DNA of 64,000 nucleotides. Origin: an uncultured Gammaproteobacteria bacterium (GTDB lineage Bacteria > Patescibacteriota > Patescibacteriia > Magasanikbacterales > GWA2-37-8). Made by a program: the position numbers and the translations under genes. Position 1 is the stretch's first letter, and each line of letters starts with the position of its first letter. The notes under the pieces are model-generated. The model saw only the letters and a program-made list of their open reading frames with translations, searched no databases and was not told the DNA's origin. The stretch spans positions 15,595 to 79,594 of the forward strand of contig CAZBWU010000002.1 of NCBI GenBank assembly GCA_964496095.1. Direction: 5' to 3'. This document shows positions 1 through 58,495 of the stretch, piece after piece.

Positions 1-977
1 CAAGCAAACGGTAACAGCCCGAGCCAAGCTAAAAATAACGATCGTCTATTATCGCAACCAAAGGCGCAACCAATTTCAAATAATAATAGTGGAAATACCA
101 GGGACCACAAAATCGGTAAAAACCATTTGGTAATAGTTAATAAATCTGTCTTAAAAACTTTTGCCAAAATAACATTACTTGACCAAAAATTACCATACGA
201 CAATTGACCAACTACAGATTTTAAATTTAATATTTCAGAATTAGGATTATCATAAATAATTGGTCCTACGATCTTAGCTTCCAAAAATTGTTTGCCATCT
301 AACAGTCTTTGTTCATTCGCAATATGTCGCCAACCATCTGCTCCATAAATTAAATCATGCGTAAGCGGTAAATAACTATGTAATAAAAAAGTTTGCAAAA
401 TCAAAAAGAGAATAATAATTGGGGTTTTTAATTTTGACCAAATTAACACTCCTAGTGTAAGCGTAGATAAAAAGAAAATAAAAATGTATTGTGGATTGAT
501 AACTTGCCATGGAGTTAAAATTGCATTTCCTGTACGCGAACTATAAAGCAAATAAAATCCATAACAAACTAAAATTAAAAAGGCTACGGATGCAAACCTG
601 ACTTTTAGTTTATCATTCTGAATGAAATGAAGAATCTTTCTGTCTTCAAGCTCTGTATCGGAAAGATCCCTCGTCCCCCGCTCTTCGCGAAGGGCGGGGT
701 CGCTCGGGATGACAGTTGACGCTATAATTCTTTTTGCCCACCTGGACAATAAGAAAAAAATCAATGCATTCAAAACAAAAATCCCAGCTAAAACCCAAAA
801 AGTTAAAGGCAAAAATAAAATAGCTACTCCAGCTACCCATCCCAAACTAAGAAAACTCGCAAATACTCCCAATATTCTACCATTAAAATTATTATCCAAA
901 CCAAACACTCTGACCAAGACGGCAGATACCCAATTTCCAACAATCAACAAGTAAACTGCAAAGAAAATAAACAACAT
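1..977 (-). CDS. Polytopic integral membrane protein, 3' end truncated by the window edge (possible GT-C-like glycosyltransferase; family not established); ATG at 975-977
   Basis: Manual translation of the minus strand gives an uninterrupted frame from ATG (975-977, preceded in frame by a TAG stop) to position 1. The product is strongly hydrophobic with many predicted TM segments (MLFIFFAVYLLIVGNW...). The frame runs straight through the palindromic repeat at 611-714. Not listed in the ORF track, presumably because it is partial. Confidence 0.5.
   Translation of the reverse strand, partial: MLFIFFAVYLLIVGNWVSAVLVRVFGLDNNFNGRILGVFASFLSLGWVAGVAILFLPLTFWVLAGIFVLNALIFFLLSRWAKRIIASTVIPSDPALREERGTRDLSDTELEDRKILHFIQNDKLKVRFASVAFLILVCYGFYLLYSSRTGNAILTPWQVINPQYIFIFFLSTLTLGVLIWSKLKTPIIILFLILQTFLLHSYLPLTHDLIYGADGWRHIANEQRLLDGKQFLEAKIVGPIIYDNPNSEILNLKSVVGQLSYGNFWSSNVILAKVFKTDLLTITKWFLPILWSLVFPLLLFEIGCAFGCDNRRSLFLAWLGLLPFA
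611..714. repeat. Nested-palindromic MITE/REP-like element copy E1, located inside the membrane-protein CDS and in-frame
   Basis: Termini tcattctgaatg ... cgctcgggatgaca. Internal palindromes gaaagatccctcgtc / gcgaagggcggggtcgc. Same family as the copies at 2590, 13644, 15154, 19461, 31986, 40575, 54453, 56500 and 58396. Confidence 0.7.
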
Positions 978-1121
978 AATTAAGTAAAGTATATAAAATT
1001 CAAAGGAAACAAACAAGCCCTAACCACTAGCAACAATTTATCCCCCTTCTACCAACAGGAATGCCACATTTTTTCTTGCCAAAAAAAACTGATTAGATTA
1101 AGATATACAAACACAAAAAAT

Positions 1122-2582
1122 ATGCCTCCTGACATTACTCAAATAGAAAAAGTTCAGCCTCAAAGCCTAGAAGCCGAAATGTCTCTTCTTGGCTCTGTTT
1201 TGCTTGATAAAGATGCGATGATTAAAATTGCGGACATTGTGCAGGCTGAAGATTTTTACAAAAATGCTAACGCTCAAATTTACGAAGCTATCGTTGAACT
1301 TTACCAAAAAAATGAACCGATTGACTTGCTTACTCTTAGTAATCGCCTTAATGAAAAAGGTCAATTAGAAAAAGCAGGCGGTCACAGCTATCTAGTATCG
1401 CTAACAAATACCGTACCAACCGCATCGCACGTTGTAAACTACGCCCACATTGTCCATAAAAAAGCGACTCGCCGAAGACTCTTAGGCGCCGCTCATGAAA
1501 TTTCCAAATTAGGCTACGACGAAAACGAAGAACTTGATACTCTGCTCGATCAAGCACAAAGAGAACTTTTTGGAGTTTCTCAAAACTACATGAAGCAGAC
1601 TTTTACTCCGATTCGTAGCGTACTTAATGAAGCGTTTGATAGAATTGACGAATTACACAAAAACAAAGGCCAAATGCGAGGCACACCAACTGGCTATCCT
1701 GACCTTGATAATCTTTTGGCCGGTTTGCAAAAATCAGATTTAATTATTCTAGCTGCTCGTCCGAGTGTGGGTAAAACTTCTTTTGCTCTAGATATTGTCC
1801 GCCACGTAGGAGTAAAAAATAAAACACCTGTAGGGCTCTTTTCTTTGGAAATGAGTAAAGAACAGCTAGTAGACCGCCTCCTCTGTTCTGAAGCCAACGT
1901 AGACCTCTGGAAGATGCGTACTGGACGATTGAGCGACAGACCTGAAGATGATGATTTCCCTCGTATTGGTCATGCGATGGGTGTACTTTCTGAAGCGCCA
2001 ATTTTTATTGATGATGCGCCAAACAACAATATCATGCAGATCCGTACCAAGGCTCGCCGTCTACAGATGGAACATGGCTTAGGGCTGATAGTTATCGACT
2101 ACTTGCAGCTCATGGAATCACGTGGAAGTTTGGAAAATCGTGTGCAAGAAGTTGCGGAAATCACTCGTGGTCTCAAAGGTATTGCACGTGAACTTAATAT
2201 TCCAGTAATGGCTCTATCACAGTTGTCTCGTACGGTAGAACAAAGCAAACCGGCTGTGCCAAAACTTTCTCACTTGCGTGAATCAGGGTCTATTGAACAG
2301 GACGCGGATGTGGTATTATTTATCTATCGTAAATCCGCCGACCGTAACTATCGCCCCGAAGATATTCCGCCTGATGAAAAAAATATTGCCGAAATCCATA
2401 TTGCCAAACACCGTAACGGTCCAACCGGCATGGTCCGAATGATCTTTGATGAACAGCGCGCTTCCTTCCGCAACATGACTACCCAATATACAGATCGTAT
2501 GGCTCCAGCTACCGCAGCACCTACTCTCAAACCAAAATCAGCGTTTAGTAACAACAGTGCCTTATCTGAACCACCAATGTAG
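1122..2582 (+). CDS. dnaB: Replicative DNA helicase DnaB
   Basis: DnaB N-terminal domain (LEAEMSLLGSVLLD), Walker A GARPSVGKTSFALD, the IDYLQLM motif and a typical 486-aa length. Confidence 0.9.
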   Translation: MPPDITQIEKVQPQSLEAEMSLLGSVLLDKDAMIKIADIVQAEDFYKNANAQIYEAIVELYQKNEPIDLLTLSNRLNEKGQLEKAGGHSYLVSLTNTVPTASHVVNYAHIVHKKATRRRLLGAAHEISKLGYDENEELDTLLDQAQRELFGVSQNYMKQTFTPIRSVLNEAFDRIDELHKNKGQMRGTPTGYPDLDNLLAGLQKSDLIILAARPSVGKTSFALDIVRHVGVKNKTPVGLFSLEMSKEQLVDRLLCSEANVDLWKMRTGRLSDRPEDDDFPRIGHAMGVLSEAPIFIDDAPNNNIMQIRTKARRLQMEHGLGLIVIDYLQLMESRGSLENRVQEVAEITRGLKGIARELNIPVMALSQLSRTVEQSKPAVPKLSHLRESGSIEQDADVVLFIYRKSADRNYRPEDIPPDEKNIAEIHIAKHRNGPTGMVRMIFDEQRASFRNMTTQYTDRMAPATAAPTLKPKSAFSNNSALSEPPM

Positions 2583-2589: not shown

Positions 2590-2684
2590 TGTCATTCTGA
2601 GCAAAGCGAAGAATCTTTCCGTTAGCAAAACTTTTTCTCGGAAAGATCCCTCGTCGACCTAAAAAGGCCTCGCTCGGGATGACA
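2590..2684. repeat. MITE/REP-like palindromic element copy E2, starting 8 nt after the dnaB stop
   Basis: tgtcattctgagcaaagcgaagaatc ... ggaaagatccctcgtcgacc ... cgctcgggatgaca; the termini are inverted repeats. Confidence 0.75.
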
Positions 2685-4040: not shown

Positions 4041-4059
4041 AAAATAAAGGGAAAGAACC

Positions 4060-4092
4060 AAAAAACCCGCCTTTACAGCGGGTTTTTTGTTT
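4060..4092. terminator. Bidirectional rho-independent terminator between the convergent XRE-like gene and rplU
   Basis: aaaaaacccgcctttacagcgggttttttgtttt: a GC stem flanked by an A-run and a T-run. Confidence 0.6.
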
Positions 4093-4107: not shown

Positions 4108-4413
4108 TTACGCAATCTTTACCAAGCTGAATCTTTGTCTTTGACCTCTTACTTTGTGGTAACGAACTTTGCGTTTAAATTTCTCTACGCGCAAGGTGCG
4201 TTCTTTGCCTTGTTTTTCTAAAGTGGCGGAGATAGTCACACCCTCAAGAAAAGGTTGACCGATTTTAACATCACTACCGTCATCTTTGGCAGTTAATAAA
4301 ACTTGATCAAAAACAACTTTCTCACCTTCAACAACAGGTAATTTTTCTATTTTTAGAGTTTCTCCGGTCTTAACCAGATATTGTTTTCCGCCGGTGGCAA
4401 TTACTGCGAGCAT
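4108..4413 (-). CDS. rplU: 50S ribosomal protein L21
   Basis: 101 aa (MLAVIATGGKQYLVKTGETLKIEKL...) with the typical L21 sequence. Confidence 0.9.
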   Translation of the reverse strand: MLAVIATGGKQYLVKTGETLKIEKLPVVEGEKVVFDQVLLTAKDDGSDVKIGQPFLEGVTISATLEKQGKERTLRVEKFKRKVRYHKVRGQRQRFSLVKIA

Positions 4414-9722: not shown

Positions 9723-9866
9723 TCATGCCCTTCGGGGCCAGATCCGCGAGCGGCTCGGGCGCACCATACGACCCGACCACCGCTCAGATCCCAGACCCGA
9801 GCCGTTCACGCAATCTAATAATTAATTTGTTAAATTGCGCGAGCTCGGATCTGTATATAATTTAAA

Positions 9867-9897
9867 AACCCCGCCTTTCACGAAAGGCGGGGTTTTT
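9867..9897. terminator. Bidirectional rho-independent terminator between the GC island and ftsL
   Basis: aaaaaccccgcctttcacgaaaggcggggttttt: a perfect GC stem with A/T runs on both sides. Confidence 0.65.
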
Positions 9898-9918
9898 AGT
9901 ATATTTTTTTATTCAAAC

Positions 9919-11847: not shown

Positions 11848-12237
11848 CTATGCCAAACCCAAAGCCGGCTTAACATGTCTCATATCTTTTTCCAAAACTT
11901 CAACTCTGTCTGTCAGATTTTTTTGATCATGGGCTAACAGGGTTTGCTCTTCGTCTTTTTTGGTATATAAACCAACAATTTTATCTAAGGTGTTCATTAT
12001 TTTTGACATATCTTCTTTTGTAGCCATGTTATCCAAAACATAATCAAGCTTCTCGCTATGTTCCGCGACTGTGCGAGCCAAAAAATCAAGCTTCTGATCA
12101 TGATCTTCAAGCTTGTCATCTATTTTATCAAACTTTTTATCTATGTTATCAAACTTAAAAACAAACTCTTCAAGTTTGTTATCTATTTTATCAAATCTTT
12201 TTTCTTGTTCCATAAAATTTGTCCCAATTTTTAACAC
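11848..12237 (-). CDS. Hypothetical coiled-coil protein with FDKIDxKLE-type repeats
   Basis: 129 aa with repeated FDKIDNKLEEF / FDNIDKKFDKIDDKLEDH units. No recognisable domain. Confidence 0.4.
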   Translation of the reverse strand: MLKIGTNFMEQEKRFDKIDNKLEEFVFKFDNIDKKFDKIDDKLEDHDQKLDFLARTVAEHSEKLDYVLDNMATKEDMSKIMNTLDKIVGLYTKKDEEQTLLAHDQKNLTDRVEVLEKDMRHVKPALGLA

Positions 12238-12273: not shown

Positions 12274-13629
12274 CTATACCTCAACCTCCAACCCAAAGAT
12301 CACCGGCATTGCCTGTATCCCCAAATCTTCTGTCACTTTTTTTGCCAGAATTGCTGACACCCCCGGTTCGCCATGATTGAACAAAACTTTTTTCGGCTTG
12401 CTTTTATTACTATCTATCCATTTCATTAGTTTGGCTTGATCGCCGTGGGCTGATAAGGCGCCAATGGCTTTGATTTGGCAATGCACCGGAATATGTTCTC
12501 CCATAATTTCTACAGGTGACTGACCGTCCAGAATTCTTCTACCCAATGTATTTTCTGATTGATAACCAATAATAAGCAACGTATTTCTGGCATCCGACAA
12601 ATAACGCATCGCATGATGCATAATACGCCCCCCATTCATCATCCCCGAACCGGCAATAACTATTTTTGGTCCCGGTACATTATTTATTTTTTTTGATTCT
12701 TCTTTGGTTTCCGTCATCACCAGTCCTGGGAAATCAAACAATTCATCGCCATTTTTATATAACTTCGCTGCTTCCACATCGTAATACTTAGGATATTTAA
12801 GATACGTTCTGATAGCTTTGATAGCCAAGGGACTATCCAAAAAAATCGGCACTTTTGGCAAGATATGCTGACGATCAATGAGATTATTTAATTCATAAAT
12901 TAATTCTTGCGTTCGCTCTAGAGAAAAAGATGGGATCATTAGCGTGCCTCCGCGAGCAATCGCTTCGCGAATAAGAGTTGCCAAAATTTCTTGACGTCTA
13001 GTAATAGTTTCATGCAAACGATTACCATAAGTAGATTCACAAACAAGCACATCTATACCGGCTGGGAGGTTTTCGGTTTCTTTTAAGATCGGCACATTGA
13101 CATTGCCAACATCGCCTGAGAACACAACACGCTTTCCTTCGGCTTCAACTTCTACAAACGCAGAACCAAAAATATGACCTGCATCGTGCAGTGTAAAAGA
13201 TACTTCCGGAGTGAGAGTAAATTTTTCATTATATTCAACCGGCTTAAATCTTTCCATTACTTTTGTAATATCACCTTCGTCATACAAAGCTGGAATATTG
13301 TAATGAGTCTGGTTATATAACATGATATGCAAAGCATCTTCCATAATCAGTTCGGCCAGTTCTATCGTCGGAGGGGTGGCATAAAAACGACCTTCATAAC
13401 CGTCTTTGACTAGTAGTGGCAATCGACCCACGTGGTCAAGATGAGCGTGAGTGATAATTACCCCAGATAATTCTGACGGTTTAAAAGAAAGTTGATCTTT
13501 ATTTTTGGCTTCACTAAATTGATTGCCTTGAAACATTCCGCAGTCAACCAAAAAATGCTTAGCACCAACCGTAAACATACTGCAAGAACCTGTGACTTCG
13601 CCTGCCGCGCCGAAGAAAGACAACTTCAT
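12274..13629 (-). CDS. MBL-fold beta-CASP ribonuclease (RNase J-like)
   Basis: HAHLDHVG motif, beta-CASP and MBL motifs, and a conserved N-terminus MKLSFFGAAGEVTGSC. The track ORF extends a further 49 aa upstream through the repeat E3; ATG 13627-13629 is taken as the likely true start. Confidence 0.8.
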   Translation of the reverse strand: MKLSFFGAAGEVTGSCSMFTVGAKHFLVDCGMFQGNQFSEAKNKDQLSFKPSELSGVIITHAHLDHVGRLPLLVKDGYEGRFYATPPTIELAELIMEDALHIMLYNQTHYNIPALYDEGDITKVMERFKPVEYNEKFTLTPEVSFTLHDAGHIFGSAFVEVEAEGKRVVFSGDVGNVNVPILKETENLPAGIDVLVCESTYGNRLHETITRRQEILATLIREAIARGGTLMIPSFSLERTQELIYELNNLIDRQHILPKVPIFLDSPLAIKAIRTYLKYPKYYDVEAAKLYKNGDELFDFPGLVMTETKEESKKINNVPGPKIVIAGSGMMNGGRIMHHAMRYLSDARNTLLIIGYQSENTLGRRILDGQSPVEIMGEHIPVHCQIKAIGALSAHGDQAKLMKWIDSNKSKPKKVLFNHGEPGVSAILAKKVTEDLGIQAMPVIFGLEVEV

Positions 13630-13643
13630 ATAAATAAGGTATC

Positions 13644-13719
13644 TGTCATCCTGAATGAAATGAAGGATCTCTGTCTCAATCACCGCCGGACAGAGATTCT
13701 TCGCAAGCTCAGAATGACA
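13644..13719. repeat. MITE/REP-like palindromic element copy E3, 15 nt upstream of the RNase J-like start
   Basis: tgtcatcctgaatgaaatgaaggatctctgtc ... ccggacagagattcttcgcaagctcagaatgaca. An open reading frame is retained through it. Confidence 0.75.
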
Positions 13720-13821
13720 ATTAAAAAATGCTTTATTGACTGGATAAAGTATACCAAAGAAAATAATATAAAACAAAAAAGCACGCGGGTGCGAGCAATA
13801 ATTTAAAACTTTATTTATGAG

Positions 13822-15153: not shown

Positions 15154-15299
15154 TGTCATCCCGAGCGAAGCCGCTCCTGCGGCTGACGAGGGATCTAAAC
15201 ATTAATTTTAATTTAATGAATAGATTCCTCACACCTAAAGGGGGTTCGGAATGACAACGACCAACCGGACAGAGATTCTTCACTCCGTTCAGAATGACA
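15154..15299. repeat. Composite MITE/REP-like elements E4 (full unit plus half unit) between the stop of the previous gene and murJ
   Basis: tgtcatcccgagcgaagccgctcctgcggctgacgagggatct ... ggttcggaatgaca, followed by accaaccggacagagattcttcactccgttcagaatgaca. Confidence 0.75.
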
Positions 15300-19460: not shown

Positions 19461-19538
19461 TGTCATTCTGAGCAAAGCGAATAATCCCTGTCCAACGAAA
19501 CAACCGGACAGAGATCCTTCACTGCGTTCAGGATGACA
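19461..19538. repeat. MITE/REP-like palindromic element copy E5, ending 5 nt before an ATG
   Basis: tgtcattctgagcaaagcgaataatccctgtcc ... ggacagagatccttcactgcgttcaggatgaca. The terminal AGGA may serve as an SD surrogate. Confidence 0.75.
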
Positions 19539-19543: not shown

Positions 19544-19945
19544 ATGTTAATTCTTCGTAAATACCAGCTAGATATCGTTTTTCTTTTTTTTGCCCTGCTT
19601 CTATTTATCGGCTTAGTTTTTTATTATCTAGGGCAAATGGGTGTAGACCCACACCAGTTTGAATGGTATGTGGCTGGGCCGCTAATTGTTTTATACTTTG
19701 CCTATATTTGGGAAATAAGAAATAAAATTAGCCTTGCCGACAGGAGGAGCCTGACAAGCAAAACTCTAGTCTATTGGATCATCTTTGGTATAATTCTTTT
19801 CATAAACTTTCAAACACCTCTAGCAGGCAAAGAATACCTAAGTATGTATGTGCTATTTATCATTTTTTCAATACTGCTGGCTGATTCATATTGGGATTTC
19901 AAAAAAATTAATTTAAAAAGTTTTTGGGATAAAAAAGAAAGATAA
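19544..19945 (+). CDS. Hypothetical polytopic membrane protein
   Basis: 133 aa with several TM helices. No recognisable domain. Confidence 0.4.
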   Translation: MLILRKYQLDIVFLFFALLLFIGLVFYYLGQMGVDPHQFEWYVAGPLIVLYFAYIWEIRNKISLADRRSLTSKTLVYWIIFGIILFINFQTPLAGKEYLSMYVLFIIFSILLADSYWDFKKINLKSFWDKKER

Positions 19946-31985: not shown

Positions 31986-32071
31986 TGTCATCCCGAGCGA
32001 AGCCGCTTTTGCGGCTGACGAGGGATCTATACTTTAATGAATAGATTCCTCACACAAGGTTCGGAATGACA
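31986..32071. repeat. MITE/REP-like palindromic element copy E6, between the rplI stop and the pyrG start
   Basis: tgtcatcccgagcgaagccgcttttgcggctgacgagggatct ... ggttcggaatgaca. Confidence 0.75.
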
Positions 32072-33439: not shown

Positions 33440-33475
33440 AACAAAAAAGCCGTCTGTATAGACGGCTTTTTTGTT
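33440..33475. terminator. Bidirectional rho-independent terminator between the convergent era and ctpA genes
   Basis: aaaaaagccgtctgtatagacggcttttttgttt. Confidence 0.65.
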
Positions 33476-33506: not shown

Positions 33507-34769
33507 TTACCACTTAAAAGTAGTTGAAGCTAAAATATCCAAAGCGGCATTAAGAACCAAATCCTCCCCCACCTTTTCTTTCTCCCAATCTTCTTTCATT
33601 TCAATATTTGGTTTGATGCCTTCTTTGTTTATATTTTTTCCATTTGGAGTGTACCATTCGGCAATTGTGAGTTTCAAAGCTGATCCATCTGGAAATTGTT
33701 CCAAATCCTGAACTGATCCCTTACCATAGGTCTGTTCTCCCAAAAGAATTCCTTTTTTTGTATCCTGCAACGCGCCAGCCACAATCTCTGAAGCTGAAGC
33801 TGAACCTTTATTAACAAGTACTACTGTTTTTATTCTTGAAAATGGATGCGAGCCGTAGGTCTTGTGTTCATTATTAATGCCATTTCTCCCTTTCTCACTT
33901 ACCACCGAGCCTTCAGTCACCCAATAGCCGGCCATATCAATAGCAGTATCAAGATAACCTCCTGGATTATTTCTAAGATCTAGAACAATCCCACTTGCTT
34001 TTTTATTTGTTATTTCTTTGGCATATTTTGCCAATTTCTTTTTGGTATCTTCATTAAATTGCATCACGCGCAAATAGGCCACGTTATTTTCTTTGAAAGA
34101 GAATAAAATGGAAGGAATAATAATTTTTGCTCTGGTAACAATTACATCCTGAGATTTGGTTTGACCGTCGCGAAGAATTGTTAGTGTCACTTTGGTATTT
34201 GCCTTACCCCTAATCTTACTCACCGCTGTATTTACATCCATTCCGGCTGTACTAGTTGTATCAATAGCCAAAATCTTATCCCCCGGTCGAAGGCCTGACT
34301 TTTCGGCTGGAGAGTCCGGCAGTGGCGAAACTACCATCAATTGAGCCTCTTTGATACCAATCTCCGCGCCAATACCCTCCAGCTCACCAGATAAGTCTTT
34401 GGCAAATTCATCGGCTTCCTTTGGCGGGAAGTAGAGAGAGTATGGGTCACCCAATGAGCCTACAAGGCCCTGGATGGCGCCATAGAGCATCGTAGTTTCA
34501 TCAGAGGACTGTTTGACATACTTATTCTTGATTTTGTCCCATACCTCCCAGAACTGATCAAATTCTACACCTGACTTATTAACCGAACGATCCGGGTTCA
34601 AAATATTGGCCACGTCTGTAGAACTACTCGAAGCTGTGATTTGATTTTTTGCATTCCAAGTACGACCAACAGATACACCTATCCCAAAAGAAATAATAAA
34701 AAATATTACTATCAAATAGGTGCCGAAATATTTTTGAGCTCTACTTTTTACTGGTGAAGTGTCAGACAT
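33507..34769 (-). CDS. ctpA: S41 family C-terminal processing peptidase with a PDZ domain
   Basis: N-terminal TM helix, a PDZ domain, the S41 catalytic region (GSASASEIVAGALQD ... K) and a 420-aa length. Confidence 0.85.
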   Translation of the reverse strand: MSDTSPVKSRAQKYFGTYLIVIFFIISFGIGVSVGRTWNAKNQITASSSSTDVANILNPDRSVNKSGVEFDQFWEVWDKIKNKYVKQSSDETTMLYGAIQGLVGSLGDPYSLYFPPKEADEFAKDLSGELEGIGAEIGIKEAQLMVVSPLPDSPAEKSGLRPGDKILAIDTTSTAGMDVNTAVSKIRGKANTKVTLTILRDGQTKSQDVIVTRAKIIIPSILFSFKENNVAYLRVMQFNEDTKKKLAKYAKEITNKKASGIVLDLRNNPGGYLDTAIDMAGYWVTEGSVVSEKGRNGINNEHKTYGSHPFSRIKTVVLVNKGSASASEIVAGALQDTKKGILLGEQTYGKGSVQDLEQFPDGSALKLTIAEWYTPNGKNINKEGIKPNIEMKEDWEKEKVGEDLVLNAALDILASTTFKW

Positions 34770-36229: not shown

Positions 36230-36315
36230 CCTATTTCGTTATATGGGCTAAAAGCCCATATATTCTCATTCGCTCAAAAATTTGTAGCGAGCTACATATT
36301 TTTTCACTCATTTCG
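36230..36315 (+). promoter_or_regulatory. Conserved ~85-nt leader/upstream element, copy 1 (ATATGGGCT-AAA-AGCCCATAT ... CTCATTCGCTC ... hairpin ... CACTCATTTCG-N3-ATG)
   Basis: Nearly identical elements occupy the same position relative to the start codon at 48939-49027 (hrcA) and 39051-39130. It contains a perfect 9-bp palindrome and a small hairpin with compensatory changes between copies. Confidence 0.5.
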
Positions 36316-36318
36316 ATT

Positions 36319-37704
36319 ATGGAATACCCTGGAACCAAATTTACCCGCCCCATTCGCGTTGCCTTACTTCTTAGCTTAATTGCTCTATTTTTGATTATAT
36401 CCCCCCTTCTAATTATGTATACGGCTGGCTACCGCTATGACTGGAAAAATGGCCTGCTCAAAGAAACTGGCGCCATCAACATTGACCTGGAACCAAAAAC
36501 AGCAATGGTCTACCTCAATAATGTCAAACTACAAGATAAAATTCCGGTTCGCTTAAACAATATTATCCCTGCCAAATATAATGTCCGTGTCACAAGTCAA
36601 GGCTATTTTGATTGGAACAAAGAAATAGAAGTCAAAAATAAACAAACAAACTACATCAAAGAAATCAGCTTACTCAAAAAAAATAAACCTGAAATTTTAA
36701 TTACCGGAGAAATAAATAATTTTGCAGTTTCTTACGATGGCCAATTTATCATTTATACCACCATAGAAAATGGTGACAATGAAATTTGGCTCTGGGATAA
36801 TAATACCAAACAAACCAATAGTTTATTTCGCCTTCCAGGCAATACAAAAATAAACATAGCTTGGGCGGAAAAAAATAATTACGTTTTAATTACAGACTCT
36901 GCCACCCCTTATTATCAAATAAGAATTATAAACGCGCTAGACTCGCTCAAACAAATAGACTTAACCAAAGAAAGTTTATTTATAAATAAAATCCAATGGG
37001 CAAACACATCTGACCCTCAATTGTATTACAGCACTAAAGAAAAAATTCTTTCCTACTCCCCTATTACCCAAACAAGTCAAACTATTAGCGCCAATAATTA
37101 CGCCGACTGGTACATGGAAAATGCCCAATTATGGACAATGCAGACAGATTCATCTACCAAGGACTACATAATCACCAAAGACACTTTGGGCTTTAGTAAA
37201 ATCTTAAAACAAATTAAAGATAGTGAGATAAAACTAACTACTGATATAGATCCTAAAGAAAAAGAAGTTAAAATCGGTTTTGCAGTTGCCAGACAAAACA
37301 GCGCCCTAATCAAAACAAACACAAATGGAAAAATGCTTTTGGTAAACAATAACGTAGTCCTACCAATGCAAGTAAGTAAATTTTTAATTTCAAAATATAA
37401 TAACTGGTGGCTTATGTGGTCTGACTGGGAATTGTGGAGCTATAATGACAATGAGAATCCATACTTACTCAATAGGTCTGGCGAACACCTGACTGACACT
37501 TTGCCTTTGGATCAATATAATACTTTGGCACTCGTCTGGGCAGACAAAGTCACCGCCCTCTTCCCTTACTACTCTGTGAGTCATGATTTAATAAGTGAAA
37601 AAATATCAAATCCCATTGCTGATACAGACAATAAAATTTTGTATTTTATAGAGAGCAATAGCCAGACAAAAAATAATAATGGAATTTGGAAATTAAACTA
37701 TTAA
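36319..37704 (+). CDS. Membrane-anchored PEGA-domain / beta-propeller (TolB-like) hypothetical protein
   Basis: N-terminal TM helix, a PEGA-like segment (PKTAMVYLNNVKLQDKIPVRLNNIIPAKYNVRVTSQGY) and W/Y-rich repeats (DGQFIIYTT...NEIWLWD). Confidence 0.5.
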   Translation: MEYPGTKFTRPIRVALLLSLIALFLIISPLLIMYTAGYRYDWKNGLLKETGAINIDLEPKTAMVYLNNVKLQDKIPVRLNNIIPAKYNVRVTSQGYFDWNKEIEVKNKQTNYIKEISLLKKNKPEILITGEINNFAVSYDGQFIIYTTIENGDNEIWLWDNNTKQTNSLFRLPGNTKINIAWAEKNNYVLITDSATPYYQIRIINALDSLKQIDLTKESLFINKIQWANTSDPQLYYSTKEKILSYSPITQTSQTISANNYADWYMENAQLWTMQTDSSTKDYIITKDTLGFSKILKQIKDSEIKLTTDIDPKEKEVKIGFAVARQNSALIKTNTNGKMLLVNNNVVLPMQVSKFLISKYNNWWLMWSDWELWSYNDNENPYLLNRSGEHLTDTLPLDQYNTLALVWADKVTALFPYYSVSHDLISEKISNPIADTDNKILYFIESNSQTKNNNGIWKLNY

Positions 37705-40574: not shown

Positions 40575-40750
40575 TGTCATTCTGAATCCCCTCAAGGGGA
40601 TAAACCCCATAAAGAATCCCTGTCTAAACAATGTCATTCCCGCAAAAAGCGGGAATCCAGACAATTCAATTGAACGCTGGATCCCCGATCAAGTCGGGGA
40701 TGACAACGAACAAACCGGACAGAGATCCTTCGCTGTCACTCAGGATGACA
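40575..40750. repeat. Tandem cluster of three or more MITE/REP-like palindromic units (E7) between the dnaJ stop and the ECF sigma start
   Basis: tgtcattctgaatcccctcaaggggataaacccc..., then tgtcattcccgcaaaaagcgggaatccagacaa, then ...gatccccgatcaagtcggggatgacaacgaacaaaccggacagagatccttcgctgtcactcaggatgaca. Confidence 0.7.
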
Positions 40751-48257: not shown

Positions 48258-48938
48258 TTAAATAATTTCAAGTAACTTTTTAATCAAACCAAAATTATAT
48301 TTATAATCCATTCTCTTTGGACCCAAAAGAGTAATCATGCCTTCTTTGCCAAACCGAGCCGAGACCACACTTAGCATCTCATCAAACGGATTTTCGCTAC
48401 CGATAAAATATCTTGGCGAATCTTCTACTTTATCAAAAAAATCTTCCAGATAATCCTCGCAATGGTCAAACATTTGCGAAATAGCAGAGACTGTTTTTAA
48501 ATTTTCAAACTCTGTTTTATTAAATAAATTGGATAAGCCAGTATAATAAACTCTCTCCGGAGAAAAAGCAATAATTACAGTTTCGTTAGAAAGTTCGGTA
48601 GCGGCCTTGGCAATATTCTTGCGTGAAAGTTCGTAATCCTGGTCTTCCTCAAAAGAATCGAGCAAAATCTTAGAATCATTTTTTGAAATATGACTTTTTT
48701 CCAAATTAATACGGCTCACGTAATGACGATAACCTTGCTCAGTTGGAATTCTACCAGCGGAAGTGTGGGGATGAGTGAGATACCCACCTTCTTCTAGAGC
48801 ACGCAACTCATTGCGTACTGTAGCCTCACTAAAATCTAAATCACCAAAAGAAACCAAAAATTTTGAACCGATTGGTTCGGCATTTTTGATATAACTTTCA
48901 ATGACTAAGGTTAGTAATTCTTCTTGGCGAGGATCCAT
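48258..48938 (-). CDS. hrcA: Heat-inducible transcription repressor HrcA
   Basis: Winged-helix N-terminus (MDPRQEELLTLVIESYIKNAEPIGSKFL) and an HrcA C-domain. The track ORF extends to a GTG at 49049, but that stretch overlaps the promoter, CIRCE and the conserved leader, so an ATG near 48938 is preferred. Exact base coordinates here are uncertain by about 1 nt. Confidence 0.8.
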   Translation of the reverse strand: MDPRQEELLTLVIESYIKNAEPIGSKFLVSFGDLDFSEATVRNELRALEEGGYLTHPHTSAGRIPTEQGYRHYVSRINLEKSHISKNDSKILLDSFEEDQDYELSRKNIAKAATELSNETVIIAFSPERVYYTGLSNLFNKTEFENLKTVSAISQMFDHCEDYLEDFFDKVEDSPRYFIGSENPFDEMLSVVSARFGKEGMITLLGPKRMDYKYNFGLIKKLLEII

Positions 48939-49027
48939 ATTCGAAATGAGTGAAAAAATATTGAGCTTGCTCAAATATTTTTGAACGAATGAGAATATAT
49001 GGGCTTTAGCCCATATAACGAAATGGG
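48939..49027 (-). promoter_or_regulatory. Conserved leader/upstream element, copy 2, in the hrcA 5' UTR
   Basis: On the minus strand it reads ...TTATATGGGCT-AA-AGCCCATATATTCTCATTCGTTC ... TTGAGC-aa-GCTCAA ... CACTCATTTCG-AAT-ATG. Confidence 0.5.
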
Positions 49028-53105: not shown

Positions 53106-54231
53106 GTATTTTATTCACTAACCAGTCTTTCAATCGACGATGCCAGCCAATTTTATTATTTAGACCCAACTCTGACAGAGGCACTGCTTCTTTTTTTAAT
53201 TCATCAAAAATTTTATTAAGGTCTTCTACCATTTTTTTATCTGAAAAAACTACGCCCGCTTCATGATTAATATAAAAACTACGCGGAGTGAGATTGGCGC
53301 TACCAACCATACCAAGCTTGCCATCCACTGTCACCGCCTTACCATGATTCATTTTTCTCAAAAAATAAAAAACCGCTCCCGCTTTAGCGGAAATACTAAA
53401 AAACATAGAAGCCATATAACGCATCAGGCGCTCATCTGTTCGCCATGGCGTGATAATATTTATTTTTACTCCTCGGGCATGTGCCTTGGCTATCAAATCC
53501 AAAAAACTCTTATCAGGCACATAGTAGGGTGTCAATAAATTAAAGCTTTCTTTAGCAGTACTAAGCGCATCTTTATAAAATTTCTTAAATGGCGACTTGC
53601 GAGTTGACCCTAAAGGTGAATGCAAAATTAGTTTTATTTTCTCCTTAAAGCTACTAATTTTAGCAACCAACTTTGGCCTTAGTAAATCTTGCACATCTCT
53701 TTTATCGCCTCCAGCTCGCACATAAGCTCTGCCAAAGGCAAACAAAATAGGCACCACTGTTTTGCCAGTCAAACGTAAATGTAAATCATGCCAACTGGCT
53801 GAGTCTTGGGCCACATTGACACCACCGATAAACAGTATATCTTTATCAATAATTAAAACTTTGCGATGAGTACGATGCCAAACTCGACGCCACCAACCAT
53901 ATATAGAAAAACCCGGACGAAGATGATTAAAAATCAAAAGCTTAATTCCCGCATTTCGCATTTGAGCAATAGCTTCTTTGGATAAATCATAACTACCAAA
54001 GCCATCCACAATAATTTTAACATCTAATCCTGTCTGCGCTTTGGCGCACAACAAATCTATAAAAGGCTTACCGGCCTCGTCATCTACAAACATAAAAATC
54101 TCCCAATAGATTGAGCTTTTGGCCTCCAAAATAGCCTGTCGCATTCCTGCCCAAGCCAAAACAGTGCTATTGTAAAATTTATAGCTAAAAGACATATACT
54201 TAAATATACTCTGCCCAAGAAGAAATATCAA
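53092..54231 (-). CDS. Phospholipase D family protein (cardiolipin synthase-like, two HKD motifs)
   Basis: HRKVLIIDKDILFIGGVN and HGKAVTVDGKLGMVGSANLTPRS; 379 aa. Confidence 0.75.
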   Translation of the reverse strand: MIFLLGQSIFKYMSFSYKFYNSTVLAWAGMRQAILEAKSSIYWEIFMFVDDEAGKPFIDLLCAKAQTGLDVKIIVDGFGSYDLSKEAIAQMRNAGIKLLIFNHLRPGFSIYGWWRRVWHRTHRKVLIIDKDILFIGGVNVAQDSASWHDLHLRLTGKTVVPILFAFGRAYVRAGGDKRDVQDLLRPKLVAKISSFKEKIKLILHSPLGSTRKSPFKKFYKDALSTAKESFNLLTPYYVPDKSFLDLIAKAHARGVKINIITPWRTDERLMRYMASMFFSISAKAGAVFYFLRKMNHGKAVTVDGKLGMVGSANLTPRSFYINHEAGVVFSDKKMVEDLNKIFDELKKEAVPLSELGLNNKIGWHRRLKDWLVNKIRDYV

Positions 54232-55271
54232 CCCAAATTATGCAGAAAATCCATCACTATTTTTTCCACATCATCGGCGGTTTTTGCGCCTTCCATCAGC
54301 CTAACCCGAAGTTCTTTAGCTCCGTCAAATCCATTGACATAAGCCTTATAATGTTTTTTCATGATATCAAAATTTTTATAGTCTCCCAGGACTTTTTCAA
54401 ACAAATGTGTATGCTCTACCATCACCATAAGTTTCTCCTCAACACTCGGCGTTGTCATCCTGAACGGAGTGAAGGATCCCTTAAACTCAGACGATAGGGA
54501 TTCTTCATTTCTCTCAGAATGACAACCGGAAAAAAGCCAGGGATTACCGAAAATCCCTCGACCAATCATCACGCCGTCTGCGCCGGTTTGTTTTACTCTT
54601 TCTTCAGCCTCGGATAAATTTTTGACATCACCATTCCCTAAAATCAAAGTCCTACTTTCTGAACTATCATATTTATTTCTAATCTCAACAGCATCTTTGA
54701 CAGTTTCCCAATTGGCAGGAACTTTGGACATCTCTTTGCGCGTACGAGCGTGCACAGTAATTGCAGCTGGTTCAGTTTCCAACAAGTACGGCAACCACTC
54801 AGACAAAGTATTTTTGTTATAACCGATTCTAGTTTTGACTGACACTGGCAAATTACCCGCTCCACGTTTAGTTTCTTTGATAATCTCTTGAGCTAACAAT
54901 GGGTGCTTTATCAGGCACGCTCCCCCGCCCTGTTTTTCTACATTTCTGTCAGGACAGCCCATATTAATATCAATTCCATCAAAACCAAGTTCTTGAATGA
55001 GCAATGCTGTTTTATAAAAATTCTCAGGATTGGAACCAAAAATCTGCGCCACAATTGGACGCTCTGCTTCGCTATACATAAAATCTATCAGAAGTTTGTC
55101 TCGGCCAGCTGAGACCAACCCATCACAAGCTACAAATTCGGTCCACATGACGTCTGGTTTACCGTATTTGGCAATTACACGTCGAAAAGCAGCGTCCGTG
55201 ACATTAGCCATCGGCGCCAAAACAAAAATTGGCTTTTTTAGTTTTTGCCAAAAGCCTGTGTGCATATGCAT
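54228..55271 (-). CDS. dus: tRNA-dihydrouridine synthase (Dus family) carrying an in-frame 24-aa insertion derived from a palindromic repeat
   Basis: TIM-barrel Dus motifs (LAPMANVTD, catalytic Cys region NMGCP, GADGVMIGRGIFGNPWLF). The segment SGCHSERNEESLSSEFKGSFTPFRMTTP is encoded by repeat E8 (54453-54524). Confidence 0.85.
   Translation of the reverse strand: MHMHTGFWQKLKKPIFVLAPMANVTDAAFRRVIAKYGKPDVMWTEFVACDGLVSAGRDKLLIDFMYSEAERPIVAQIFGSNPENFYKTALLIQELGFDGIDINMGCPDRNVEKQGGGACLIKHPLLAQEIIKETKRGAGNLPVSVKTRIGYNKNTLSEWLPYLLETEPAAITVHARTRKEMSKVPANWETVKDAVEIRNKYDSSESRTLILGNGDVKNLSEAEERVKQTGADGVMIGRGIFGNPWLFSGCHSERNEESLSSEFKGSFTPFRMTTPSVEEKLMVMVEHTHLFEKVLGDYKNFDIMKKHYKAYVNGFDGAKELRVRLMEGAKTADDVEKIVMDFLHNLG
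54453..54524. repeat. MITE/REP-like palindromic element copy E8, lying within the dus coding sequence (72 bp, in-frame)
   Basis: tgtcatcctgaacggagtgaaggatccc ... gggattcttcatttctctcagaatgaca. Confidence 0.8.
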
Positions 55272-56351: not shown

Positions 56352-56423
56352 TAGCCCCAACGGGAATCGCACCCGTCTTTCGACCTTGAGAAGGTCACGT
56401 CCTAACTGATAGACGATGGGGCC
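56352..56423 (-). tRNA. tRNA-Glu (anticodon CUC)
   Basis: Manual cloverleaf: acceptor GGCCCCA/TGGGGCT (G1-U71 wobble), U8, D-stem GTCT/GGAC, anticodon stem TGACC/GGTCG, loop TTCTCAA (anticodon CTC, A37), T-stem ACGGG/CCCGT, discriminator A. The 5' sequence GGCCCCATCGTCTA is typical of tRNA-Glu. Confidence 0.75.
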
Positions 56424-56499: not shown

Positions 56500-56553
56500 A
56501 GTGTAAGGGATTCCTCCACTCAGTCGCAAAAGCTCCTTCGGTCGGAATGACAA
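56500..56553. repeat. Partial (right-half) MITE/REP-like element E9, between the typA stop and tRNA-Glu
   Basis: ggattcctccactcagtcgcaaaagctccttcggtcggaatgaca. Confidence 0.5.
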
Positions 56554-56570
56554 CCCCTACTTTCTACTCC

Positions 56571-58376: not shown

Positions 58377-58395
58377 ACTTAATTGTTATTTTTGT

Positions 58396-58495
58396 TGTCA
58401 TCTTGAGCGAAGTCGAAAGATCCCTTATACTAAGCTATTTAAAATTCTTGGTTTAAGGGATTCCTACACTACGGTCGGAATGACAAGTACATTGC
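58396..58495. repeat. MITE/REP-like palindromic element copy E10, 20 nt upstream of the typA start
   Basis: tgtcatcttgagcgaagtcgaaagatccc ... gggattcctacactacggtcggaatgaca. Confidence 0.75.

What the first reader, a model, noticed from the sequence alone, without database searches (positions are those of the whole stretch)
611..58495. Abundant family of nested-palindromic MITE/REP-like elements (at least 10 copies in 64 kb) abutting start and stop codons
Copies are at 611-714, 2590-2684, 13644-13719, 15154-15299, 19461-19538, 31986-32071, 40575-40750 (tandem), 54453-54524, 56500-56553 (half) and 58396-58495. They share termini TGTCATYCYGARC ... GYTCRGRATGACA, and modular internal palindromes such as GAAAGATCCCTCGTC/GACGAGGGATCT, CCGGACAGAGATYCTTC and GGTYCGGAATGACA. 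Each can fold into a long imperfect hairpin. They sit within 5-35 nt of start codons (pyrG, murJ, typA, ECF sigma, RNase J-like, the 19544 ORF) or immediately after stop codons (dnaB, rplI, dnaJ, typA). The right terminus carries RGGATGACA, which could supply an SD-like GGA and an ATG to the downstream gene. No transposase is present in the window, so these would be non-autonomous. At this density and with this consistent placement they probably shape transcription termination, mRNA stability or translation initiation genome-wide.
Basis: seen in the sequence. Interest (0 to 1): 0.65.

Follow-up and report, generated by a model that had tools for sequence, protein, structure and literature searches.

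The report
TGTC-tagged palindromic repeats (REP/SRM class)
The window, probably from a Candidatus Magasanikbacteria (candidate phyla radiation) genome, carries ten copies of a real palindromic repeat that belongs to an already published, pan-bacterial class of "CGTC/TGTC-tagged" REP hairpins, which in other bacteria are recognition sites for small single-strand-DNA nucleases (Ssn), so it is a new instance of a known kind.

Summary
All ten loci exist, together they hold about 22 hairpin modules, and a covariance model finds none elsewhere in the window.

The basic unit is a module: TGTC, then a hairpin that starts with AT, then C. Modules are usually paired head-to-head, which gives TGTCAT…ATGACA ends. 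The stem co-varies strongly, and there is no target-site duplication.

This matches the "CGTC/TGTC-tagged REP" superfamily (Di Nocera 2013), which includes Neisseria dRS3 and Rickettsia RPE-4/-6. It also matches the "Ssn-related motifs" (Chenal 2025) that flank and are bound as ssDNA by small GIY-YIG nucleases. I re-found that gene–repeat link independently in 7 of 8 Ssn-type genes.

The elements are not classical MITEs. Two copies (611-714 and 54453-54524) are in-frame insertions inside genes. 40575-40750 is nested, not tandem.
- **Additions.** The dominant "GA-type" module escapes the published SRM search string. A close relative lacks the elements at three orthologous sites. The Dus insertion site is occupied by different element types in related genomes.
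- **Open question.** No Ssn gene or transposase lies in the window, and whether this genome has a cognate nuclease is untested.

The parts
611..714 (.). Head-to-head doublet. The left module is 611-636 (TATCAT variant). The right module is 665-714 and carries a GC-rich stem inserted in its loop. The doublet is an in-frame 35-codon insertion in a loop of a 712-aa multi-pass membrane protein encoded on the minus strand, which runs off the window start.
   Evidence: Sequence. Covariance model 32.6 bits. Gene call on Logan contig L213. The ORF is open through the element and Met1 is the only methionine (ATG) in the first 260 residues (GTG/TTG starts not checked). Homologues conserve the N-terminal 85 aa and the region after the insert.
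2590..2684 (.). Head-to-head doublet with modules 2590-2615 (+) and 2645-2684 (-, with inserted stem). It lies between the dnaB stop (2582) and the ybaB-like start (2729).
   Evidence: 44.4 bits. Pfam: DnaB, YbaB. Short-read contig L213 ends inside it.
13644..13719 (.). Head-to-head doublet with modules 13644-13669 (+) and 13695-13719 (-). It lies just upstream of a beta-CASP / RNase J-like gene on the minus strand.
   Evidence: Pfam domains begin at residue 60 of the over-long ORF 12274-13776, so the element sits in the leader.
15154..15299 (.). Doublet 15154-15256 (modules 15154-15195 + and 15223-15256 -) followed by a solo right-hand module 15274-15299 (-). It lies between the stop of a 223-aa ORF (15145) and the murJ start (15334).
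   Evidence: The same composite arrangement occurs in L066 at 4266-4396. Logan contigs L001 and L003 begin inside it. MurJ.
19461..19538 (.). Head-to-head doublet with modules 19461-19486 (+) and 19513-19538 (-). It ends 5 nt before the start of ORF 19544-19945.
   Evidence: DNA fold -13.4 kcal/mol, z = -3.5. Logan contig L001 ends inside it.
31986..32071 (.). Head-to-head doublet with modules 31986-32027 (+, with inserted CCGC…GCGG stem) and 32044-32071 (-). It lies between the rplI stop (32078) and the pyrG start (31974) on the minus strand.
   Evidence: Pfam: CTP synthase and ribosomal protein L9. Fold z = -4.4.
40575..40750 (.). Nested pair of doublets. The outer GA-type doublet has modules 40575-40618 (+) and 40724-40750 (-). 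An inner dRS3/NTS-type doublet, modules 40632-40657 (+) and 40680-40705 (-), is inserted in its central loop. The whole lies between the dnaJ stop (40773) and the ECF sigma start (40544).
   Evidence: Only these two inner modules match the published SRM search string. Pfam: DnaJ and Sigma70.
54453..54524 (.). Head-to-head doublet of 72 nt, which is 24 codons, inserted in frame in the tRNA-dihydrouridine synthase gene (54228-55271, minus). It encodes CHSERNEESLSSEFKGSFTPFRMT.
   Evidence: The Pfam Dus match spans both sides, E = 3e-62. Translation. Orthologue alignment with filled and empty alleles. Empty site in the close relative L214.
56509..56552 (-). Solo module with a long inserted loop, followed by a CCTTAC linker. 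It lies between the typA stop (56571) and a tRNA gene (56352-56423).
   Evidence: tRNA. Absent from the orthologous spacer of L214.
58396..58485 (.). Head-to-head doublet with modules 58396-58422 (+) and 58459-58485 (-). It lies in the typA leader, downstream of a conserved promoter-like TTGACA…TATAGT and 20 nt from the start codon (58376).
   Evidence: The alignment with L214 shows a conserved leader with about 120 nt extra in the window only.

Best explanation
The ten loci are copies of a REP-type repeat of the published CGTC/TGTC-tagged superfamily.

**Anatomy (shown).** The unit is a module of 25-50 nt:
- an unpaired 5' tag, TGTC;
- a stem whose first two pairs are A-T and T-A;
- three co-varying pairs (YCY/RGR);
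- a tandem G·A/A·G mismatch;
- a co-varying 2-bp apical stem closed by a G-N-A triloop, or a larger inserted stem;
- an invariant C directly after the palindrome.

Two modules sit head-to-head, with their tags facing outward and their tails pairing. This gives TGTCAT…ATGACA elements of about 70-100 nt. Such elements can nest in one another.

**Mechanism (inferred from the characterised relatives).** The module is read as a single-stranded DNA hairpin, on one strand only, by a small stand-alone GIY-YIG nuclease of the Ssn family. In Neisseria this nuclease needs the C after the palindrome for binding and the three bases before it for cleavage. It cuts a few nucleotides upstream of the tag.

**Status in this window.** The copies are non-autonomous members of such a population. 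They are gained and lost between close relatives, tolerated in tight intergenic spacers, and tolerated in frame within protein loops.

**Not shown.** How the copies multiply is unknown: Ssn-dependent cut-and-copy, or spread of filled alleles by transformation and recombination. Whether this genome encodes a cognate nuclease is also unknown.
For: **Anatomy**
- Enrichment of 19 hits against 0.29 expected.
- 22 modules, all carrying GTCAT (once ATCAT) and a closing ATC.
- Census of 464 modules. The stem triplet is mostly YCY. GA follows the 5' stem in 373 of 464 modules and precedes the 3' stem in 350 of 464. The G-N-A loop occurs with all four N.
- Covariation on modules chosen without reference to pairing: 96.4% paired, 88 double-sided changes against 25±6, 0 of 500 shuffles as high.
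- Orientation of adjacent modules: 111 head-to-head, against 8, 11 and 21 for the other arrangements. Flanks read Y|TGTCAT…ATGACA|R, with no target duplication.

**Match to the literature**
- PMC3733652 describes a CGTC tag often changed to TGTC, stems that start A,T, an unpaired tail, mostly head-to-head dimers, location next to ORF ends, and intragenic in-frame copies. It equates these repeats with dRS3 and RPE-4/-6.
- PMC11893778 describes Ssn/NTS biochemistry and the association of the gene with the repeat.

**Independent re-discovery of that association**
- A small GIY-YIG is the most recurrent ORF family in 115 loci selected by the repeat alone.
- The two Ssn-type genes among the six in that cluster, in Verrucomicrobiota (L019, L110), abut GA-type modules.
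- A Planktothrix plasmid Ssn gene is flanked on both sides by the modules.
- 4 of 5 Ssn homologues picked from plasmids by protein alone are flanked on both sides by GTCAT-hairpin-ATC modules. These are Rhizobium, Spirosoma, Azospirillum and Neisseria.

**Mobility**
- The close relative L214 (85-88% nt identity, syntenic) is empty at all three orthologous sites.
- L199 has elements where the window has none.
- Short-read contigs break inside the elements.

**Organism**
- The nearest named Dus homologues are Candidatus Magasanikbacteria / Patescibacteria.
Against: - No Ssn-type gene, and no GIY-YIG of any kind, lies in the 64 kb or in 4.8 kb upstream.
- None was seen in the Patescibacteria-labelled loci in hand or in the many 'uncultured Gammaproteobacteria' MAG loci, whose taxonomic label I suspect but did not check.
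- The small GIY-YIG common in these candidate-phyla genomes is of the UPF0213/YhbQ type (PDB 1ywl E = 1e-17). When 80 loci were chosen by that protein alone, 56 had no module at all and only about 5 had one within 200 nt.
- The published SRM search string matches only 2 of the 22 window modules. The dominant GA-type has never been tested biochemically with any Ssn.
- Nearest-neighbour DNA energies give a single module only -1.9 kcal/mol, z = 0.2. The extra stability of sheared G·A pairs and GNA triloops is from my own knowledge, not computed.
- Propagation by Ssn is only a hypothesis even in the source paper.
Confidence: 0.8

Rival explanations
1. They are REP/REPIN elements mobilised by a RAYT (a Y1 HUH tyrosine transposase of the IS200/IS605 type), as in Pseudomonas and E. 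coli.
For: - The architecture is the same: a tagged imperfect hairpin, inverted doublets, no target duplication, and an extragenic bias.
- The partner would be single-copy and could lie anywhere in the unseen remainder of the 457-kb contig.
Against: - The tag is TGTC, not GTAG.
- Di Nocera et al. found that RAYT genes are flanked by GTAG repeats and that CGTC repeats 'apparently lack a dedicated transposase'.
- No recurrent transposase-like ORF family appeared among 2229 ORFs from 115 repeat-selected loci, whereas a GIY-YIG family did.
- No Y1 or other transposase domain is present in the window.
Confidence: 0.07
2. They are primarily cis-acting RNA structures, selected to act as terminators, mRNA stabilisers or translation-initiation modulators.
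For: - Eight of the ten loci sit inside operon spacers or leaders and must be transcribed. One example is the typA leader downstream of a conserved promoter-like site.
- Doublets fold into long hairpins.
- Di Nocera et al. argue that many REPs function as RNA.
- The right end carries GGA/ATG.
Against: - No Rfam family matches them.
- The same doublet type occurs in both orientations relative to transcription (elements 4 and 6).
- The elements are not followed by T-runs, and the genome uses a separate canonical terminator family.
- Two copies are translated in frame.
- The outer stem shows no G·U intermediates.
- A close relative does without them at three sites.
- Ssn does not bind RNA.
- RNA effects are likely side-effects rather than the reason the family exists.
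Confidence: 0.08
3. They are classical MITEs, that is, deletion derivatives of an insertion sequence moved by a DDE transposase that recognises terminal inverted repeats.
For: - Small size, inverted termini, high copy number and presence/absence polymorphism.
Against: - There is no target-site duplication.
- The termini are the tags of autonomous hairpin units that also occur singly (56509-56552, 15274-15299).
- The same unit occurs across many bacterial phyla, judged from assembly labels, with co-varying stems. That pattern fits hairpin recognition, not recognition of double-stranded terminal repeats.
- No transposase is present in the window.
Confidence: 0.03

Closest known systems
CGTC/TGTC-tagged REP superfamily (Di Nocera, De Gregorio & Rocco 2013, BMC Genomics 14:522; PMC3733652)
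   Same: - Unpaired 5' tetranucleotide tag, with TGTC explicitly listed as a frequent variant.
- Stems that start with A then T.
- A short unpaired tail.
- Predominantly head-to-head dimers.
- Location next to ORF ends.
- In-frame intragenic copies encoding 20-30 aa.
   Different: [quoted passage not shown] Here the host is a candidate-phyla-radiation bacterium.
- The dominant stem contains a conserved tandem G·A/A·G and a G-N-A triloop.
- I could not see the paper's Figure 2, so I cannot say which of its four families, if any, this type belongs to.
Ssn-related motifs (SRM) / Neisseria NTS with the SsnA GIY-YIG ssDNA nuclease (Chenal et al. 2025, Nat Commun 16:2388; PMC11893778)
   Same: - HGTC tag, then an A/T-initiated hairpin, then C.
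- The bases conserved here (GTC before the palindrome, C after it) are the ones shown by mutagenesis to govern cleavage and binding.
- Repeats cluster around genes.
- In other phyla the same GA-type modules directly flank Ssn-type genes.
   Different: - Only 2 of 22 window modules fit the published degenerate SRM string.
- No ssnA homologue was found in the window or the nearby sequence.
- The biological role shown in Neisseria, restriction of transforming ssDNA, is untested here.
Neisseria dRS3 / NIME repeats
   Same: Window module 40632-40657, TGTCATTCCCGCAAAAAGCGGGAATC, has the dRS3 form ATTCCC-N8-GGGAAT with the NTS flanks. Neisseria SsnA is flanked by CGTCATTCCCGCGCAGGCGGGAATC.
   Different: This type is a minority in the window (one inner doublet). 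There are no NIME-like mosaic arrays here.
REP/REPIN-RAYT systems (Nunvar 2010; Bertels & Rainey 2011)
   Same: - Tagged hairpin units and inverted doublets as the replicating unit.
- No target duplication.
- Long persistence, with gain and loss between relatives.
   Different: - A different tag (GTAG).
- A different enzyme class (Y1 HUH transposase against GIY-YIG).
- No RAYT is seen here.
Rickettsia palindromic elements (RPE; Ogata et al. 2000)
   Same: Palindromic repeats inserted in frame into protein-coding genes. RPE-4 and RPE-6 are themselves CGTC-type according to PMC3733652.
   Different: - RPE-1 is longer (about 100-150 bp) and of a different sequence family.
- The host here is not an intracellular alphaproteobacterium.

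Membership tests
CGTC/TGTC-tagged REP superfamily | Unpaired terminal tetranucleotide CGTC, or its TGTC/CCTC variants, at one end of the hairpin | tested here: met
   21 of 22 window modules start TGTC and one starts TATC. T precedes GTCAT in 409 of 464 modules overall.
CGTC/TGTC-tagged REP superfamily | Stem of about 8-9 bp whose first and second pairs are A-T and T-A | tested here: met
   All modules begin AT and end AT. The stem is 9 positions including two G·A mismatches, and the pairs co-vary.
CGTC/TGTC-tagged REP superfamily | Short unpaired tail after the stem (consensus CCA in the paper) | tested here: inconclusive
   The first tail base, C, is invariant. The following bases here are YYTGTC, CCTTAWA or CAG rather than CA. 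In doublets the tail pairs with its partner.
CGTC/TGTC-tagged REP superfamily | Units predominantly arranged as head-to-head dimers | tested here: met
   111 head-to-head pairs against 8, 11 and 21 for the other arrangements. 9 of the 10 window loci contain such a dimer.
CGTC/TGTC-tagged REP superfamily | Assignment to one of the four described families (stem 8-9 bp, loop 4-5 nt) | not testable with these tools
   The consensus sequences are in a figure that is not held. The GA-type has a 3-nt loop, or a 5-nt loop if the closing C-G is not counted.
Ssn / SRM system (GIY-YIG cd10448) | Motif fits the published SRM string HGTCWYN(0-2)YYVSBRHN(0-5)WNVSBRGN(0-2)RNCYNB | tested here: not met
   Only 2 of 22 modules match (40632-40660 and 40677-40705), against 0.08 expected. 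The GA-type fails at the VSB positions.
Ssn / SRM system (GIY-YIG cd10448) | Conserved bases at the positions that control SsnA cleavage (3 nt 5' of the palindrome) and binding (C 3' of the palindrome) | tested here: met
   GTC before the palindrome and C after it are invariant in alignment A4 and in the window modules. The functional meaning is taken from PMC11893778.
Ssn / SRM system (GIY-YIG cd10448) | A cognate ssnA-type gene in the same genome, typically flanked by the motif | not testable with these tools
   None is in the window or in 4.8 kb upstream. The rest of the 457-kb contig could not be fetched. For the same GA-type module in other phyla this feature is met.
Ssn / SRM system (GIY-YIG cd10448) | Strand-specific binding and cleavage as ssDNA, not dsDNA or RNA | not testable with these tools
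   This is a biochemical property. Only indirect hints are available: a GNA triloop, tandem G·A pairs, and no G·T wobble in the outer stem.
REP/REPIN-RAYT | GTAG tag and a flanked Y1 (PF01797) transposase gene | tested here: not met
   The tag is TGTC. There is no Y1 domain in the window and no transposase cluster in the repeat-selected loci.
MITE (DDE-transposase derived) | Terminal inverted repeats flanked by a target-site duplication | tested here: not met
   Direct repeats of 2 nt or more at the flanks occur at chance level, and 1-nt identity is depleted.
Rfam structured RNA families | Covariance-model match at or near the gathering score | tested here: not met
   Only a tRNA passes the gathering score. 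The sole element-overlapping hit is mir-143 at 25.7 bits against a gathering score of 60.

The most novel reading that the evidence does not exclude
GA-type TGTC-tagged doublets may form a self-propagating population in candidate-phyla-radiation genomes that lack a canonical Ssn (cd10448).

- **Who services them.** They could be serviced by the lineage's conserved UPF0213/YhbQ-type GIY-YIG. That protein is about 40% identical to a cyanobacterial Ssn, and in three module-rich genomes it directly abuts modules.
- **How they spread.** Filled alleles, including in-frame ones such as the Dus hot-spot, could spread between lineages by natural transformation and homologous recombination.
- **Why it would matter.** This would make UPF0213 proteins a second family of hairpin-specific ssDNA nucleases. 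It would also give the first evidence that a GIY-YIG and REP pair behaves like a REPIN-RAYT replicator.
Probability: 0.15. Interest if true: 0.65.

Novelty: new member of a known kind. Interest (0 to 1): 0.35.

Why it matters
- **Host range.** It places a published repeat and nuclease class in a candidate-phyla-radiation genome of about 39% G+C, where such repeats had not been described in the papers I could read.
- **Survey bias.** The commonest module type here, which carries a tandem G·A mismatch and a GNA triloop, also occurs in assemblies labelled as many different phyla. It escapes the degenerate search string used for the 2025 genome survey, so that survey probably under-counts these motifs.
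- **Practical consequences.**
  - The repeats break short-read assemblies.
  - They create spurious ORF extensions.
  - They add 24-35 residues to real proteins (Dus and a membrane protein).
  - All three matter for annotating such genomes.
- **Enzyme specificity.** If Ssn enzymes flanked by GA-type modules cut that sequence, they would add a new specificity to a family proposed as ssDNA tools.

Tried and rejected
1. **Resemblance to a hammerhead core or a K-turn.** The CTGACGAG and GAAG motifs suggested a hammerhead, and the tandem G·A suggested a K-turn. The order of the motifs is wrong for a hammerhead and there is no 3-nt bulge for a K-turn. Rfam gives nothing.
2. **The CPR-type GIY-YIG (YILECADKTLYTG…) as the autonomous partner.**
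   - It was the top recurrent ORF cluster.
   - However, 80 loci chosen by that protein alone were mostly module-free, and several of them share a similar upstream sequence, which suggests a fixed syntenic position.
   - It is of the UPF0213 type rather than Ssn.
   - I rejected it as an obligate partner and kept it only as the speculative novel case.
3. **Target-site duplication or palindromic target.** None was found.
4. **Phage carriage.** There are no convincing hits in 50,697 phage records.
5. **Literature searches** by raw sequence, and by GIY-YIG together with REP or MITE terms, found nothing. The decisive papers surfaced only after the Neisseria dRS3 link was seen.
6. **Wobble asymmetry** of the long hairpin relative to the direction of transcription. 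By eye 6 of 8 elements fit, which is too weak to use.
7. **Fetching the rest of the source contig.**
   - One protein look-up returned a Logan contig reaching only 4.8 kb beyond the window start.
   - One found no record.
   - The syntenic JGI contig had no DNA available.
8. **A first alignment of six GIY-YIG proteins** was too divergent for the locus search.

Full report

Yes. The terminus pattern TGTCATYCYGARC, allowing one mismatch, occurs 19 times in the window against 0.29 expected, and no shuffle reaches that number.

A scan that asks for GTCAT, then five bases and their reverse complement within 75 nt, followed by C, finds about 22 hairpin units inside those loci. It finds only two obvious chance hits elsewhere.

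I built a covariance model from 75 distinct units and ran it with filters off. It scores 20 units, all within the ten loci, and only noise beyond them at E>1.5. The two units with long inserts (665-714, 56509-56552) came from the scan.

The elements make up roughly 1.5% of the window.

**2. Anatomy**

The repeated thing is not the 70-170-nt element but a smaller module.

- It starts with TGTC.
- A hairpin follows, opening with A-T and T-A.
- Next come three variable pairs, mostly YCY/RGR.
- Then G-A lies opposite G-A as a tandem mismatch.
- Then comes a two-pair apical stem and a three-base loop. In some copies a longer GC-rich stem is inserted in place of the loop.
- An invariant C closes the module.

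*Covariation.* I collected 26-mers using only the fixed tag, the two GA dinucleotides and the closing ATC. The five variable pairs are 76-99% Watson-Crick and switch between pair types. For example, position 7:23 is T-A 38, C-G 31 and G-C 5. Overall 96.4% of cells pair. There are 88 double-sided changes against 25±6 in shuffles, and 0 of 500 shuffles are as high.

*Loop and mismatches.* The loop is G-N-A with all four N. From my own knowledge, C-GNA-G triloops and Y-GA-R tandem sheared pairs are classic stabilisers of single-stranded DNA mini-hairpins. The folding tool's energy model does not include these bonuses and gives a lone module only -1.9 kcal/mol.

*Arrangement.*
- Adjacent modules are head-to-head, with tags outward, 111 times. 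The other three arrangements occur 8, 11 and 21 times. This is what produces the TGTCAT…ATGACA ends.
- The tails after the closing C (YYTGTC, CCTTAWA or TATTCAT types) pair with each other.
- Whole doublets therefore fold as long hairpins. Four of the five folded have z = -3.5 to -5.0, and the typA-leader doublet has z = -1.9.
- The flanks read Y|TGTCAT…ATGACA|R, and there is no target-site duplication.
- 40575-40750 is an inner doublet sitting in the central loop of an outer one.
- 15154-15299 is a doublet plus a solo half. The same composite occurs in another genome.

**3. Context**

Pfam annotation of 58 ORFs shows only housekeeping genes. They include dnaB, ybaB, recR, clpB, mraZ, mraW, a beta-CASP RNase, murJ, lepA, recJ, cell-envelope glycosyltransferases, pyrG, rplI, era, murA-like, dnaJ, dnaK, grpE, hrcA, yidC, gdh, a PLD-type synthase, dus and typA. 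There is no transposase and no GIY-YIG.

The exact Dus protein is on a 457,569-bp contig. Its nearest named homologues are Candidatus Magasanikbacteria / Patescibacteria.

Eight loci lie in very short spacers or leaders.

Two loci are inside genes, in frame.
- **54453-54524** adds 24 residues (CHSERNEESLSSEFKGSFTPFRMT) between the catalytic barrel and the helical domain of Dus.
- **611-714** adds 35 residues to a loop of a 712-aa membrane protein. Homologues conserve that protein's N-terminal three hydrophobic segments and its downstream part.

The genome's real intrinsic terminators are a separate motif, AAAACCCGCC…GGCGGGTTTT.

**4. Evidence of gain and loss**

*A close relative with empty sites.* A Logan contig from another sample (L214) is syntenic and 85-88% identical at the nucleotide level. 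It has none of the three elements that fall in the shared region.
- Its Dus site is empty.
- Its typA leader is otherwise conserved but lacks about 120 nt.
- Its typA-tRNA spacer lacks the solo module.

*A more distant relative with different sites filled.* A more distant Magasanikbacteria genome (L199) has elements between dus and the PLD gene and between yidC and the Band-7 gene. The window has none at either place.

*The Dus site.* In an alignment of 30 Dus orthologues, the same site after GNPWLFxx is empty in several close relatives. Elsewhere it is occupied by different inserts, most beginning CH (TGT CAT) and many ending G/R-M-T (…ATG ACA). Some are GA-type doublets and some are dRS3-like doublets. 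This needs either repeated use of one site or transfer of filled alleles. I did not resolve which.

*Assembly effects.* Short-read contigs of the same organism start and stop inside elements, as expected for multi-copy repeats.

**5. Distribution**

By assembly label these came from Verrucomicrobiota, Acidobacteriota, Chloroflexota, Patescibacteria, Bacteroidota, Clostridia, Alpha- and Gammaproteobacteria, Desulfobacterota, Planctomycetota and others. MAG mis-binning could inflate this list. However, an isolate genome (Pedobacter) and isolate plasmids of Planktothrix, Calothrix, Hymenobacter and Granulicella also carry it.

Phage records do not carry it.

**6. Which protein goes with it?**

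I clustered all ORFs from the 115 repeat-selected loci. The most recurrent family was a small GIY-YIG protein, confirmed by Pfam. It splits into two types.

*UPF0213/YhbQ-like type.*
- It matches PDB 1ywl at E = 1e-17 and is common in candidate-phyla genomes.
- When 80 metagenome loci were chosen by this protein alone, 56 had no module and only about 5 had one within 200 nt.
- It is therefore not an obligate partner.

*Ssn-like type (…LYxGVTxDLxRRxxEH…GFTxKY…LVxxE…).*
- It abuts GA-type modules in two Verrucomicrobiota loci. In both, the stop codon lies inside the module and the protein ends …DSSLRSE*.
- In a Planktothrix agardhii plasmid it sits, flanked on both sides by doublets, in a DISARM operon slot. 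Sister plasmids hold a toxin-antitoxin pair in that slot.
- I picked five further homologues from plasmids by protein alone. Four (Rhizobium, Spirosoma, Azospirillum between sufB and sufC, and Neisseria gonorrhoeae) have GTCAT-hairpin-ATC modules on both sides. The fifth (Novosphingobium) has a different hairpin on both sides.
- The Neisseria module is the classical dRS3 repeat.

**7. What is known**

The dRS3 lead turned up two papers.

*Di Nocera et al. 2013* defined a "CGTC-tagged" REP superfamily.
- The tag is often TGTC.
- Stems start A,T.
- There is a short unpaired tail.
- Units are mostly head-to-head dimers.
- They lie next to ORF ends, and some are intragenic in-frame copies.
- The paper equated the superfamily with Neisseria dRS3 and Rickettsia RPE-4/-6.
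- It noted that these repeats lack a dedicated transposase.

*Chenal et al. 2025* studied SsnA, a 94-aa single-domain GIY-YIG (cd10448).
- It binds the Neisseria motif only as ssDNA, on one strand, and not as RNA or dsDNA.
- It cuts a few bases upstream.
- The C after the palindrome is critical for binding, and the three bases before it are critical for cleavage.
- 71% of ssnA homologues have such motifs nearby.
- The system restricts transformation by motif-bearing DNA.
- The authors only hypothesise that motif-ssnA-motif is a domesticated mobile element.

My gene-repeat association is therefore a re-discovery, and the window's elements are members of this class.

**8. What differs**

- The published degenerate search string matches only the two inner modules at 40632-40705. 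The GA-type falls outside it, even though it directly flanks Ssn-type genes in two other phyla.
- The host phylum is not among those named in either paper.
- No Ssn-type gene was found in the window, in 4.8 kb upstream, or in the Patescibacteria-labelled loci in hand.
- A search seeded with a Magasanikbacteria UPF0213 protein returned nothing from the window's contig among the 120 best hits listed.
- Whether this genome has a cognate nuclease remains open.

**9. Verdict**

The finding is real and well described, but it is not a MITE and not new in kind. They are not supported as the reason for the family's existence.

The useful additions are these:
- the host, a candidate-phyla-radiation bacterium;
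- a module variant that the published search string misses;
- two in-frame insertions, one at a recurrently occupied site in Dus;
- clean filled and empty comparisons with a close relative.

Noticed in passing
window 54228-55271 (-); alignment A3 of Dus orthologues: The same site in Dus (after GNPWLFxx) is empty in several close relatives. In other Magasanikbacteria it is filled by different element types, most starting CH and many ending GMT or RMT. Next to the insert the window's flank (VEEKLMVMVEHT) resembles filled alleles, while the rest of the gene resembles empty ones. This suggests transfer of the filled allele by recombination.
   Followed up: partly
alignment A3 columns 87-109 (Dus orthologues P0023, P0051, P0055, P0056, P0097): Some orthologues have a second insertion, of about 23 aa (SKYGGxDIxxGxKxxLPxxSxxxGG), after AKY. 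The window protein does not have it. It may be another repeat-encoded peptide.
   Followed up: no
L201 18544-18614, 19164-19255 and 19317-19412 (Planktothrix agardhii plasmid NZ_LR882964.1): Beside the Ssn gene, the element terminus plus about 11-20 nt of flank is repeated in tandem three times on each side, for example TGTCATTCTGAG+11 nt. It looks like repeated cut-and-repair at the boundary where Ssn would cleave.
   Followed up: no
L201 15405-15575 and 17094-17273: Several doublets lie inside the annotated 1560-aa MmeI/PglX-like CDS of a DISARM operon. This is apparently another case of in-frame carriage.
   Followed up: no
L201 13020-13850; L206 574-1365: A 'four helix bundle protein' gene in the same operon is flanked on both sides by heptamer tandem arrays (CCCCAAT, CGTAAAT, GATTTAC). 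This is a different kind of repeat-flanked small gene.
   Followed up: no
L210 1363-1981 (Azospirillum lipoferum plasmid): An Ssn-type GIY-YIG gene with doublets on both sides sits between sufB and sufC. This looks like a selfish insertion into an essential operon.
   Followed up: no
window 36251-36323 and 48934-49007: A 73-nt inverted repeat, 97% complementary over 31 nt, lies 12.6 kb apart. One copy is just upstream of a PEGA-domain gene and the other is at the start of hrcA. It may be a shared regulatory region.
   Followed up: no
window 4059-4089, 9862-9899, 33445-33469, 58614-58638: A separate family of canonical terminator hairpins (AAAACCCGCC…GGCGGGTTTT) marks operon ends. It is distinct from the TGTC elements.
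   Followed up: partly
window 12043-12205: Five 21-nt-spaced direct repeats (ATCAAGCTT/ATCAAACTT…) lie inside ORF 11848-12237, which has no Pfam match. They probably reflect a repetitive coiled-coil-like protein.
   Followed up: no
window 33694-33828 (+): A sub-threshold Rfam match to Rickettsia sRNA47 (35.9 bits against a gathering score of 60, E = 1.3e-5) lies opposite the S41 peptidase gene. It is probably chance.
   Followed up: no
L001, L003, L213 against the window: Independent short-read contigs of the same organism start or stop at 15168 and 19531, and about 63 nt past the dnaB stop. All three positions are inside elements. The repeats therefore fragment assemblies of this lineage.
   Followed up: yes
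proteins P0145, P0225, P0006, P0011: Gene callers extend ORFs into modules. This gives tails such as …SLRMT… or …VIPSEASRRSRGI on UPF0213 proteins, and N-terminal extensions on Dus.
   Followed up: partly
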